From an uncultured bacterium (GTDB taxonomy: Bacteria > Verrucomicrobiota > Kiritimatiellia > RFP12 > UBA1067), in the NCBI GenBank assembly GCA_902779565.1, contig CACZCD010000001.1, forward strand, positions 3,929 through 67,928: DNA of 64,000 nucleotides, written 5' to 3'. Made by a program: the position numbers and the translations under genes. The notes below the pieces were generated by a model. It had not been told where the DNA came from. It ran no database searches and worked only from the letters and a program-made list of their open reading frames with translations. Below, piece after piece: positions 22,615 through 22,936 of the stretch; the first letter of the stretch is position 1; every line of letters begins with the position of its first letter.

Positions 22615-22700
22615 ACGGACAGAACACGGACAAGTTACGGACTTGCGACGGACAGCCGCTCCGCACACATAAACGGACTCGGGACGGACTGAAAACGGAC
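22615..22700. repeat. Array A: ACGGAC hexamers at an 11-bp period (7 copies)
   Basis: Exact ACGGAC at 22615, 22626, 22637, 22648, 22673, 22684 and 22695, with an in-phase TCGGAC at 22728 beyond a GC hairpin. Confidence 0.85.
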
Positions 22701-22936
22701 AGGCGCTCGCAGGGCGACCGCCCTGCCTCGGACAATCAGCCAGCGAAACCACACAATCCCCAACCACCCTCAACCGTCGCCCCGCACCCCGCGACCACTG
22801 CGTGGCTCGGCCTTCGACCTCGAATGATATCCCTGCGCAATCCCCCGCAGTTCCTCCAATCCACCACTCCTCCAATCACCCAATCCTCACACCCCACCCA
22901 CTCCACACCCGCAGAGCCAGCCTTGAACACCCTAAA

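What the first reader, a model, noticed from the sequence alone, without database searches (positions are those of the whole stretch)
22615..22735. Third, shorter ACGGAC array (array A) in the araC 3' region, in phase across a GC hairpin
Seven exact ACGGAC cores lie at 22615, 22626, 22637, 22648, 22673, 22684 and 22695. Six of these form 11-bp steps. They are followed by a 7-bp-stem GC hairpin (GCAGGGC-gacc-GCCCTGC). A TCGGAC then sits at 22728, which is 33 bp, or three periods, after the last core. Array A has the same orientation as array B and begins 31 nt after the AraC stop codon. It would therefore be transcribed as part of that mRNA if the only terminator is the one at 22937-22975. The right end of the segment thus has two arrays (A and B) separated by a C-rich tract and a terminator, while the left end has one.
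Basis: seen in the sequence. Interest (0 to 1): 0.55.

Follow-up and report, generated by a model that had tools for sequence, protein, structure and literature searches.

The report
Phased ACGGAC repeat array beside araC
The run of ACGGAC motifs spaced one DNA turn apart after the araC-type gene is real, but it is the inner piece of a larger inverted-repeat array that is attached to a small cassette of DNA-binding-protein genes in rumen Kiritimatiellae; it is most likely a docking platform for a protein not yet identified.

Summary
There are seven exact ACGGAC cores (4 + 3, separated by a 25-bp jump), a 7-bp GC hairpin, and an in-phase TCGGAC 33 bp after the last core. About 3e-9 such runs are expected by chance.

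Array A is not an independent third array. It aligns in register with the inner part of the left-end array and with the start of a homologous array on another contig. A and B are therefore one array, split by about 300 bp (hairpin, C-rich tract, araC terminator).

Over 42 units the ACGG(A/G)C core carries 1.3-2 bits per position and the 5-bp spacers about 0.1 bits. This points to selection on a phased hexamer.

The arrays go with a four-gene cassette: a sigma-like HTH protein, a small lipoprotein-like protein and two HU-family/Ig proteins. The cassette recurs at 97% identity in a different genomic context, again followed by an ACGGAC array. Six AraC paralog contexts have no array. Related ACACGGAC arrays are dispersed in two Lentisphaeria MAGs.

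Best reading (about 0.45): a cooperative DNA-binding platform, with a cassette protein as the leading candidate binder. Array A probably lies in the araC 3'UTR through rearrangement. No binding or transcription data exist.

The parts
22615..22653 (+). Array A, block 1: four units NNNNN-ACGGAC at 11-bp steps. It is a paralog of the 5-unit (55-bp) super-repeat of array B.
   Evidence: spacer identity to B units 2-5 is 14/20 against a background of 0.28; family D1
22654..22672 (+). Irregular 19-nt C-rich spacer (AGCCGCTCCGCACACATAA) that shifts the phase by 3 bp. The left array has a counterpart (ACTCGCCCTCCCATAG).
22673..22700 (+). Array A, block 2: three exact units at 11-bp steps.
22709..22726 (+). 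GC palindrome/hairpin GCAGGGC-gacc-GCCCTGC with no T-run. Its arms share GCAGGG/CCCTGC with the boxes upstream of the cassette.
   Evidence: (present in both MFE and centroid folds)
22728..22733 (+). TCGGAC, a one-mismatch core 33 bp (3 periods) after the last exact core.
22736..22935 (+). C-rich, G-poor tract (49% C, 13% G) with no 11-bp periodicity. It is hypervariable between strains. It is part of the ~300-bp segment that separates A from B.
22937..22975 (+). Intrinsic terminator (9-bp stem plus T6), probably the araC terminator. Pairing is kept through compensatory changes in strain L002.
   Evidence: (I8)
23016..23252 (+). Array B: 22 units with core ACGG(A/G)C and variable 5-bp spacers.
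23234..23287 (+). Right arm of a perfect 54-nt inverted repeat: the last two units plus the 34-nt tail GGCAACAAACACAAGCACAAGCGCCTTTCCCGCG. Read on the - strand, the tail is a terminator-like hairpin 20 nt after the YqeY stop.
   Evidence: (I1)
7428..7481 (-). Left arm of the perfect 54-nt inverted repeat (tail plus the last two units).
   Evidence: (I1)
7463..7652 (-). Left array, about 16 units on the - strand. The inner block 7652-7605 and units 7588-7560 are the counterpart of array A.
7666..7697 (-). Intrinsic terminator of the HU-family gene, immediately followed by the left array. Its 3' arm has a remnant (CCGCCCCACCC) just before array A.
7766..8833 (-). HU-DNA_bdg / Ig (DUF4469) / TIG protein, 355 aa. 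Last gene of the cassette.
8851..9558 (-). HU-HIG protein, 235 aa (HU-DNA_bdg plus DUF4469).
9572..9838 (-). 88-aa protein whose N-terminus reads like a lipoprotein signal (...LAGC).
   Evidence: gene calls; the lipoprotein reading is my own inspection of the sequence
9877..10374 (-). 165-aa all-helical protein with a sigma-70 region-4 / LuxR-type HTH at residues ~100-150 (ECF-sigma-like). First gene of the cassette.
   Evidence: all matches are below curated or significance thresholds
10485..10644 (-). Cassette head. It holds repeated GCARGGTGCRA boxes (~23-bp spacing); two inverted pairs form T-run hairpins. The 97% homology with L249 starts here.
   Evidence: (D4)
21793..22584 (+). PAS-AraC regulator gene. 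Array A begins 31 nt after its stop codon.

Best explanation
Array A is the proximal block of the right-hand copy of a two-copy, inverted 'ACGGAC array element'.

Shown:
- The left copy (7428-7652, - strand) directly follows the terminator of a four-gene cassette: a sigma-like HTH protein, a small lipoprotein-like protein and two HU-family/Ig proteins.
- The right copy is A + B. It follows araC and has been split by about 300 bp carrying a GC hairpin, a C-rich tract and the terminator that araC now uses.
- Each unit is a conserved hexamer ACGG(A/G)C plus 5 unconstrained bp, so successive hexamers lie about one helical turn apart.

Inferred:
- The hexamers are bound head-to-tail on one face of the duplex by a sequence-specific DNA-binding protein, forming a cooperative filament. 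This would work like OmpR/PhoB- or SARP-type direct repeats, ParR-parC or StbA-stbDR.
- The most likely binder is encoded by the adjacent cassette. The sigma-4/LuxR-type HTH protein fits a 6-bp site best. The HU-family proteins would act as architectural partners.
- The two inverted arrays mark, and may bridge, the borders of the 15.9-kb segment.
- Array A is a low-copy satellite site that ended up inside the araC 3'UTR through rearrangement. It is not a dedicated UTR element.
For: 1. The arrays are far from chance and are the only ones in the window.
2. Over 42 units the core positions carry 1.25-2.0 bits and the spacer positions 0.06-0.23 bits.
3. In homologous unit comparisons, cores match 49/54 and spacers 30/45 (Fisher p = 0.005).
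4. Three copies (array A, the left inner block, the L249 start) align in register with conserved cores and divergent spacers.
5. Between strains the arrays are identical while the neighbouring C-rich tract is heavily diverged.
6. The register is kept at 11/22/33-bp distances, including across the hairpin.
7. Arrays B and L are bracketed by terminators facing inwards, so they are shielded from transcription.
8. No significant RNA structure was found (z = 0.21, -1.12, 0.09, 0.04) and there is no Rfam match.
9. The cassette plus array recurs with different flanks. Window 10644-8088 is 96.8% identical to L249/L250/L251. There the second HU gene is followed by the same terminator and a ~700-bp ACGGAC array region.
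10. The cassette encodes DNA-binding folds: HU-DNA_bdg/HU-HIG and a sigma-4-like HTH.
11. The arrays are not a property of the AraC family.
Against: - There are no binding or expression data.
- Array A, unlike B and L, is not shielded from transcription and is probably transcribed.
- Its 25-bp jump breaks the helical register, and B has 10- and 12-bp slips.
- The cassette-array link rests on what is essentially one cassette lineage (97% identity) plus the cassette-less right copy.
- Lentisphaeria arrays have no cassette homolog within 8 kb. They show about a 2:1 sense bias relative to the upstream gene, and C-rich tracts on the same strand in 10 of 11 cases. This hints at a strand-specific, transcription-related role.
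- All sigma-like matches are below significance (E = 0.002-0.3; Foldseek E > 0.1).
- Ig-fused HU-HIG proteins have been argued not to clasp DNA and not to be sequence-specific (PMC5499826).
- Sigma factors normally bind DNA only within RNA polymerase.
Confidence: 0.45

Rival explanations
1. Selfish or neutral dispersed intergenic repeat. The arrays would be modules of a REP/BIME/BOX-like mosaic repeat family of PVC bacteria. Such elements spread and rearrange by recombination or slippage, settle after gene ends, and have no dedicated host function. On this reading array A is a rearrangement scar of one such element.
For: - Two Lentisphaeria MAGs carry dozens of mosaic elements: a T-run head, a covarying hairpin, (NNN-ACACGGAC)n, and tails made of other short tandem repeats. 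They are mostly intergenic and lie 50-100 nt after stop codons.
- The window has other intergenic short tandem repeats.
- Arrays differ in unit number and order between copies.
- The right copy is interrupted by an unrelated 300 bp.
- 165-aa gene homologs sit almost only on short contigs, which suggests repeats that break assembly.
Against: - Slippage or gene conversion would homogenise whole units. Here the spacers are near-random while the hexamer and its register are kept.
- The arrays are invariant between strains next to a hypervariable tract.
- About 100 kb of other Kiritimatiellae contigs hold no arrays, so the element is not abundant in this lineage.
- No recurrent transposase lies near the Lentisphaeria copies.
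Confidence: 0.2
2. RNA-level element. Array A, and read-through of the others, would act in the transcript as a row of single-stranded ACGGAC (A-N-GGA-like) motifs. These would titrate or recruit an RNA-binding protein of the CsrA/RsmA type or similar, or modulate 3'-end stability or Rho action together with the downstream C-rich tract.
For: - Array A lies between the araC stop and the only canonical terminator.
- The arrays are predicted to be unstructured.
- ACGGA fits the A-N-GGA core of CsrA sites (own knowledge).
- All three arrays are sense to the local upstream gene.
- Lentisphaeria arrays show a sense bias and same-strand C-rich tracts.
Against: - Arrays B and L start after T-run terminators and are closed by an inward-facing terminator on the other side.
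- The strict 11-nt register, kept at 22 and 33 nt, has no obvious RNA rationale.
- Six of 42 units read GGG instead of GGA, while position-6 C is invariant, which is unlike CsrA sites.
- The motifs are not presented in hairpin loops.
- There is no Rfam hit.
Confidence: 0.15
3. Transposon ends. The 15.86-kb segment 7428-23287 would be a non-autonomous transposon. Its terminal inverted repeats would carry many subterminal transposase-binding hexamers, in the manner of Tn7, Mu or plant CACTA/hAT ends. Array A would be an inner subterminal cluster.
For: - A perfect 54-nt inverted repeat lies at the outer tips, and the array homology continues inwards.
- Compact GTCCGT...ACGGAC dyads (MITE-like) occur in some Bacteroidales and Sphingobacteriales MAGs.
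- A SoFic-like defence gene and the cassette (found in a second context) lie inside the segment.
Against: - No transposase or recombinase lies in the segment.
- No target-site duplication is present.
- The tip sequence was not found in JGI metagenomes apart from 3 chance hits.
- Most of the interior is an ordinary Kiritimatiellae glycan operon with its divergent AraC regulator, as in paralogous loci.
- In L249 the cassette plus array occurs without the rest of the segment.
Confidence: 0.08
4. Tandem promoter-like or decoy sites for the cassette's sigma-like protein. The hexamers would resemble ECF -35 elements (CGGAC/CGAAC against GGAAC). In an 11-bp array, each GGAC is followed 17 nt later by CGG, which is the AAC-N16/17-CGT geometry of ECF promoters. 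The arrays would recruit or sequester an alternative RNA polymerase holoenzyme.
For: - The 165-aa protein resembles two-domain sigma factors.
- ACGAAC variants of the core occur in the L249 inverted block.
- The geometry follows directly from the sequence.
- ECF consensus elements are from my own knowledge.
Against: - The sigma assignment is sub-threshold.
- There is no conserved -10-like element distinct from the core.
- Transcripts fired from B would run antisense into yqeY.
- This rival rests on no direct evidence.
Confidence: 0.06

Closest known systems
Direct-repeat sites of OmpR/PhoB-family and SARP winged-helix regulators (hexamer or heptamer repeats with 11-bp centre-to-centre spacing; e.g. 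pho boxes, PhoP, WalR, ArcA; SARP heptamers, PMC5930380)
   Same: A 6-bp recognition core plus a 5-bp unconstrained spacer, arranged head to tail with an 11-bp period. The implied binding is cooperative and on one face of the helix.
   Different: Known sites have 2-6 repeats placed at promoters. Here there are 8-22 units lying after gene ends or between convergent terminators. No regulator has been assigned; an OmpR-type regulator at 41594-42328 is merely present in the window.
Centromere-like arrays of small plasmid partition and stability systems (R1 parC: 10 x 11-bp repeats bound by ParR; R388 stbDR: 9-bp repeats at an 11-bp period bound by StbA). From own knowledge.
   Same: Long arrays of short direct repeats at one helical turn. 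They lie next to the gene for the presumed binder and assemble a protein filament on DNA.
   Different: No ParM/ParA-type NTPase gene was seen. The location is chromosomal. There are two inverted copies 15 kb apart. The candidate binders are sigma-4/HU-type rather than RHH/ParR.
Dispersed mosaic intergenic repeats (E. coli REP/BIME including IHF-binding RIP/RIB elements; pneumococcal BOX with a variable number of boxB modules). From own knowledge.
   Same: Intergenic, just after gene ends. Modular, with a variable number of internal units. Associated hairpins. A link to HU/IHF-family proteins. Dozens of copies in the Lentisphaeria MAGs.
   Different: The unit is only 11 bp, with a conserved hexamer and free spacers, rather than a 35-45-nt palindrome. 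Few copies are seen in this Kiritimatiellae contig. The array is physically attached to a protein-coding cassette.
Replication-origin iterons inside phage initiator genes (lambda O-type layout)
   Same: Four or more 11-bp ACGGAC-containing direct repeats occur in phage contigs, inside a wHTH replication-organiser-like gene.
   Different: The window has no homologous initiator, no AT-rich unwinding region and a monotonic GC skew. Composition-matched control hexamers give 16-24 viral loci against 44 for ACGGAC, so the phage hits mostly reflect generic 11-bp iterons.
CsrB/RsmZ-type protein-sponge RNAs
   Same: Many repeats containing A-N-GGA in one transcript-sense strand. The copy number (22) is similar to that of CsrB.
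   Different: There is no hairpin-loop presentation, no Rfam match, a strict 11-nt register, and GGG variants are tolerated. Arrays B and L lie behind terminators.

Membership tests
Intrinsic (Rho-independent) terminator - for the hairpin 22709-22726 | GC-rich stem-loop immediately followed by a T/U run | tested here: not met
   The stem is present, but the next bases are CTCGGACAATCAG. The terminator scan does not report it.
CsrB/RsmZ-type sponge RNA | Multiple GGA (A-N-GGA) motifs | tested here: met
   35 of 42 units read ACGGA.
CsrB/RsmZ-type sponge RNA | GGA motifs exposed in loops of short hairpins; a structured RNA with its own promoter and terminator; a match to a known family | tested here: not met
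   Folds are no better than shuffles. Rfam gives no hit at the gathering threshold or at E<=1.
CsrB/RsmZ-type sponge RNA | CsrA/RsmA encoded by the organism | tested here: inconclusive
   tblastn found no CsrA in the window or fetched loci, but only a small part of any genome is held.
Replication-origin iterons | Adjacent AT-rich unwinding element, initiator gene in cis, strand-skew switch | tested here: not met
   GC content is 57-62% around the arrays and the cumulative GC skew is monotonic. There is no Rep/initiator homolog.
Plasmid-type partition centromere (parC / stbDR-like) | Array of short direct repeats at about one helical turn | tested here: met
   11-bp period, 8-22 units.
Plasmid-type partition centromere (parC / stbDR-like) | Adjacent partition operon (ParA/ParM NTPase plus an RHH or HTH adaptor), with the array overlapping its promoter | tested here: not met
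   Pfam finds no ParA/ParM/ParR/StbA in the segment. The arrays lie downstream of genes.
OmpR/PhoB/SARP-type regulator binding site | Hexamer or heptamer direct repeats with 11-bp spacing | tested here: met
OmpR/PhoB/SARP-type regulator binding site | Two to about six repeats positioned at or near the -35 region of a regulated promoter | tested here: not met
   Array A is 31 nt after a stop codon. B lies between convergent terminators. Unit numbers are 8-22.
Transposon with terminal inverted repeats and subterminal binding sites | Terminal inverted repeats | tested here: met
   A 54-nt perfect inverted repeat at 7428-7481 / 23234-23287, with array homology continuing inwards.
Transposon with terminal inverted repeats and subterminal binding sites | Target-site duplication; a transposase in cis or other copies of the ends in other sites | tested here: not met
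   No TSD beyond trivial CGCG overlaps. No transposase. The tip was not found in the metagenome scan.
REP/BIME/BOX-like dispersed intergenic repeat | Many dispersed copies per genome in intergenic regions, with a modular structure | tested here: inconclusive
   This is met in two Lentisphaeria MAGs. In the Kiritimatiellae material only the window (2 copies) and L249 (1 copy) carry arrays, and about 100 kb of other contigs have none.
CRISPR array | 24-48-bp repeats separated by unique spacers of similar size; cas genes | tested here: not met
   The period is 11 bp with a 6-bp repeat. No cas genes are present.
Sigma-70/ECF family - for the 165-aa cassette protein | Significant match to sigma region 2 and region 4 profiles | tested here: inconclusive
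   NCBIfam sigma70-ECF E = 0.0023, 17.6 bits against a cutoff of 42.9. PDB profile hits to sigma-4 have E = 0.3-0.6. Foldseek top hits are almost all sigma factors, but E >= 0.15; the SigL sigma-4 domain has prob 0.98 and rmsd 2.6 A over 64 columns.

The most novel reading that the evidence does not exclude
The arrays and the adjacent cassette would form a self-contained module, found so far in two genomic contexts and so possibly mobile, that organises a chromosomal domain. On this reading a cassette-encoded protein (the sigma-4-type HTH and/or the HU-Ig proteins) nucleates on phased ACGGAC hexamer arrays. Two inverted arrays are bridged to loop or insulate the enclosed 12-kb glycan-utilisation operon. 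Related ACACGGAC arrays that have colonised Lentisphaeria genomes are the same kind of site used genome-wide. This would be a previously undescribed nucleoid-protein/cognate-array system in PVC bacteria.
Probability: 0.12. Interest if true: 0.8.

Novelty: new variant of a known kind. Interest (0 to 1): 0.5.

Why it matters
If the arrays are docking platforms for a cassette-encoded protein, this would be a compact protein-plus-site module in an uncultured, poorly studied phylum (Kiritimatiellae, Lentisphaeria). Its 6+5-bp grammar is unusually long (up to 22 units). It would also give a first testable function for HU-HIG-type proteins, whose role is unknown (PMC5499826).

It also explains a practical problem. 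These arrays and the cassette genes break metagenome assemblies: homologs of the 165-aa gene lie almost only on contigs shorter than 5 kb.

If the arrays turn out to be selfish repeats, they are still a new repeat family, useful for strain typing in rumen PVC bacteria.

Tried and rejected
1. Link to the AraC family. Homolog search plus six paralog contexts found no arrays. Rejected.

2. Phage connection. 44 viral loci carry 4x ACGGAC at 11 bp, but these are mostly simple 11-bp iterons inside a replication-organiser-like gene. There is no homolog in the window. Three composition-matched control hexamers give 16-24 loci. The phage hits are not specific to this feature.

3. Mobile-element tip. 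A metagenome scan with the 22-nt tail found only three unrelated chance matches, and no TSD is present.

4. Long RNA hairpin between the C-rich tract and the arrays. z = 0.04. Rejected.

5. Rfam, at gathering and permissive thresholds: nothing.

6. G-quadruplex/i-motif in the C-rich tract: no canonical motif.

7. HU or 165-aa homologs next to Lentisphaeria or Bacteroidales arrays: none within the 8-kb loci. There is also no recurrent transposase there; only prepilin-type proteins recur.

9. Cassette proteins in the phage and plasmid collections, IMG/VR and PADLOC: no match. Only Fic matches SoFic.

10. Sequence search of the two HU-family proteins against PDB: no significant hit.

11. Origin or terminus of replication: GC skew is monotonic.

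12. Chi-like reading. Outside the arrays the hexamer is not over-represented (50 observed against about 45 expected).
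Full report
**1. Observation**

The + strand carries exact ACGGAC cores at 22615, 22626, 22637, 22648, 22673, 22684 and 22695. The palindrome GCAGGGC-gacc-GCCCTGC lies at 22709-22726. A TCGGAC lies at 22728, 33 bp after the last core. The PAS-AraC ORF ends at 22584, so the array starts 31 nt after the stop codon.

The seven cores form two blocks (4 + 3) with five 11-bp steps. A 25-bp jump between the blocks shifts the register by 3 bp.

Chance does not explain this. Outside the arrays the hexamer occurs at 3.9e-4 per position, which gives about 3e-9 expected four-in-phase runs in the window. 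A one-mismatch phased scan finds only three arrays (22615-22739 +, 23016-23268 +, 7446-7588 -), and found none in any of 20 shuffles.

**2. The motif**

I put 42 units from the three arrays in register. The six core positions carry 1.25-2.0 bits: A 41/42, C 39/42, G 41/42, G 42/42, A/G 35+6/42, C 42/42. The five spacer positions carry 0.06-0.23 bits. The unit is therefore ACGG(A/G)C plus five free bases.

Array A block 1 is a paralog of the 55-bp (five-unit) super-repeat of array B. Spacer identity is 14/20 against a background of 0.28. In such homologous comparisons cores are kept 49/54 and spacers 30/45 (Fisher p = 0.005).

A second strain (L002) is identical through array A, the hairpin and array B, apart from one 1-nt indel. 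The C-rich tract and terminator (about 22820-22975) are heavily diverged, yet the terminator keeps its pairing.

**3. Array A is not a separate third array**

The outer ends of the left array and of array B form a perfect 54-nt inverted repeat (7428-7481 / 23234-23287). It consists of the last two units plus a 34-nt tail.

The homology continues inwards. Array A aligns in register with the inner part of the left array on the - strand. The correspondence runs ACGGAT, AAGGAC, ACGGAC, a degenerate unit, an irregular C-rich spacer, then three exact units. Array A also aligns with the first units of a third copy on contig L249 (I3). Just before array A there is a remnant (CCGCCCCACCC) of the 3' arm of the terminator that precedes the left array.

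The right-hand copy is therefore A + B. About 300 bp has been inserted into it (22706-23010: GC hairpin, C-rich tract with 49% C and 13% G, and a hairpin-plus-T6 terminator).

**4. Surroundings**

The window comes from a rumen Kiritimatiellae contig. This rests on the names of AraC and 165-aa homologs and on strong Shine-Dalgarno sequences, which I read directly from the sequence.

The segment between the inverted repeats contains the following:
- a glycan-type operon (radical-SAM activase, GH28, FGE-sulfatase, a glycyl-radical enzyme);
- a SoFic-like Fic gene;
- the divergent PAS-AraC regulator.

At its left end is a four-gene cassette:
- a 165-aa protein;
- an 88-aa lipoprotein-like protein;
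- a 235-aa HU-HIG protein;
- a 355-aa HU-DNA_bdg/Ig/TIG protein.

No transposase or recombinase is present.

AraC-PAS paralogs at 75-86% identity sit in six other contexts with 40-95-nt downstream spacers and no arrays. The arrays are therefore not an AraC feature.

**5. The arrays go with the cassette**

Window 10644-8088 covers the cassette head through two-thirds of the last HU gene. It is 96.8% identical over 2557 nt to L249/L250/L251, where the flanks are unrelated: GH20 genes upstream; tRNA-Val and a large serine recombinase downstream.

There the last HU gene is followed by the same terminator and a ~700-bp array region, consisting of:
- about 20 units with core ACGG(A/G/T)C and variable spacers;
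- an inverted degenerate ACGAAC block;
- a GC hairpin;
- two further + blocks.

The arrays have diverged far more than the genes (about 75% with rearrangements, against 97%), yet they keep the core and the register.

A 79%-identity cassette (L252) shares the head, but its contig ends before the array position.

The head carries GCARGGTGCRA boxes at about 23-bp spacing. Their arms resemble the array-A hairpin.

Homologs of the 165-aa gene (57 proteins, 59-97% identity) lie almost exclusively on contigs shorter than 5 kb. This is the pattern expected for multicopy or repeat-flanked DNA.

**6. Candidate binders**

The 165-aa protein is all-helical in an AlphaFold2 model (mean pLDDT 83). Foldseek returns almost only sigma factors; the SigL sigma-4 domain has prob 0.98 and rmsd 2.6 A, but all E-values are >= 0.15. 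A PDB profile search gives sigma-4 and LuxR-type HTH at E = 0.3-1.7. NCBIfam sigma70-ECF scores E = 0.0023, below its cutoff. One source annotates a fragment as FixJ-type. It is therefore sigma-4/LuxR-HTH-like, but unproven.

The HU-HIG clade is a Bacteroidetes-type expansion of unknown function. Its describers doubted sequence-specific DNA clasping for the Ig-fused forms (PMC5499826).

An OmpR-type response regulator lies 19 kb away, with no evidence of a link.

**7. DNA or RNA?**

For DNA:
- The strict 11-bp register is kept at 22 and 33 bp, including across the hairpin.
- The grammar of a hexamer plus a 5-bp free spacer is typical of winged-helix/HTH direct-repeat sites (own knowledge; SARP example PMC5930380).
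- Arrays B and L each begin after a T-run terminator. On the other side they are closed by the tail, which reads inwards as a terminator-like hairpin. On the right it lies 20 nt after the yqeY stop.
- The arrays have no RNA structure (z = 0.21, -1.12, 0.09, 0.04) and no Rfam match.

For RNA or a transcription-coupled role:
- Array A is probably transcribed with araC.
- All arrays are sense to the local upstream gene.
- In Lentisphaeria the arrays are about 2:1 co-oriented with the upstream gene, on crude ORF calls.
- C-rich tracts, where present, lie on the ACGGAC strand in 10 of 11 cases.

A CsrA-type reading fits A-N-GGA. It does not fit the invariant position-6 C, the tolerated GGG variants, or the absence of loop presentation.

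**8. Wider distribution**

About 60 of these came from two Lentisphaeria MAGs.

There (NNN-ACACGGAC)n, with 4-22 units, is one module of a dispersed mosaic element. The other modules are:
- a T-run/CACGAA head;
- a hairpin with compensatory variants;
- tails built of other short tandem repeats.

These elements are mostly intergenic and lie 50-100 nt after stop codons. No cassette homolog or recurrent transposase lies nearby.

Small arrays, some arranged as GTCCGT...ACGGAC dyads, occur in rumen Bacteroidales MAGs.

Viral hits are a different matter. They are iterons inside a replication-organiser-like gene, and they are only about two-fold above composition-matched control hexamers.

About 100 kb of other Kiritimatiellae contigs have no arrays.

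**9. Interpretation**

Shown:
- Array A is real.
- It is homologous to the proximal part of the left and L249 arrays.
- It is part of an inverted two-copy element attached to a cassette that recurs in a second genomic context.
- Selection acts on a phased hexamer.

Inferred:
- The arrays are cooperative DNA-binding platforms (about 0.45).
- The binder is cassette-encoded (lower confidence, about 0.25).
- Array A sits in the araC 3'UTR because the right copy was duplicated behind araC and then split by the terminator-bearing insert.

Rivals, in order:
- a selfish or neutral mosaic repeat (0.2);
- an RNA-level motif row (0.15);
- transposon ends (0.08);
- ECF-like promoter or decoy arrays (0.06).

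**10. Novelty and score**

Full-text searches for the motif grammar found nothing.

The kind of feature (phased short direct repeats; dispersed mosaic repeats) is known. Four things appear undescribed: this 6+5 grammar with up to 22 units, its inverted two-copy layout, its attachment to a sigma-like/HU-Ig cassette, and its spread in PVC bacteria. I therefore rate it a new variant of a known kind.

Array A on its own is a minor, derived piece of that system. Interest is 0.5.

Noticed in passing
window 10485-10644 (- strand sense); L249 5686-5850; L252 3660-3800: Upstream of the 165-aa sigma-like gene there are repeated GCARGGTGCRA boxes at about 23-bp spacing. Two inverted pairs form hairpins followed by T-runs. 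The boxes are conserved in all three cassette copies, and their GCAGGG/CCCTGC arms resemble the hairpin inside array A.
   Followed up: partly
window 4587-4774: The spacer between the U32 peptidase and 5'-nucleotidase genes is built from three different short tandem repeats: (TTCCACCT)x8, (ACGCAGAGG)x3 and a 14-mer x2. On the sense (-) strand the first reads (AGGTGGAA)n, which resembles a Shine-Dalgarno sequence.
   Followed up: no
window 35735-35837 and 44008-44127: Short tandem repeats sit inside long ORFs. An (AGGTTGAA)5...(TTCAACNC)4 dyad lies in an alpha-2-macroglobulin-like gene, and (GAGGGTT)n / (CCTCTTC)n flank a GC hairpin in the dnaG ORF.
   Followed up: no
window 20512-21654 (-): The Fic-domain protein matches the PADLOC SoFic anti-phage model (7e-33) and PHROG 5978 (3e-41). 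It lies in the lowest-GC stretch of the window (about 51%), next to araC.
   Followed up: partly
window 22820-22975 compared with L002: Between two strains the arrays are identical. The C-rich tract and the araC terminator are heavily diverged, with a 20-nt length difference and compensatory changes that preserve the terminator stem.
   Followed up: partly
window 7406-7431 and 7687-7712: A 26-nt direct repeat (81% identity) brackets the left array. One copy overlaps the inverted-repeat tip and the other sits at the HU-gene terminator. This may be a trace of how the array was inserted or duplicated.
   Followed up: no
L049-L165 (Lentisphaeria MAGs JAPXLT01, JAQVUB01), e.g. L074 1340-1700, L104 800-1100: These MAGs hold dozens of mosaic intergenic elements. 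Each has a T-run plus CACGAA head, a covarying hairpin (GCGGAC/GCCCGC, GTGGGC/GCCCAC, GTGGAC/GTCCAC), (GGG/TTT-ACACGGAC)n, and tails of (GATCGGWC)n, (CCCTGCA)n or (GTCCATT)n. Some form convergent array pairs about 68 bp apart.
   Followed up: partly
viral loci L012, L013, L021, L027, L031, L040, L043, L046, L048; prophage in L091: Four or more 11-bp ACGGAC iterons followed by (AAGAATGAT)n lie inside a gene whose product starts GWIKLHRK... It gives weak wHTH, RepL and Phage_rep_org_N matches. This is an origin-inside-initiator-gene layout like lambda O.
   Followed up: partly
L249 9472-9548 and 10202-11944: In the second cassette context the array region is followed by tRNA-Val. Beyond that lies a large serine recombinase with a DUF2924 protein, which probably marks an integrated element at the tRNA.
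   Followed up: no
L253 / L254: A truncated 94-aa relative of the 165-aa protein sits next to an AbiEii toxin gene instead of the HU genes. The HTH gene family therefore also occurs in a setting next to a toxin-type gene.
   Followed up: no
window 41594-43511 (-): An OmpR-type response regulator and histidine kinase pair lies next to dnaG and rpoC. Proteins of this fold read hexamer-N5 direct repeats, but nothing links this pair to the arrays.
   Followed up: no
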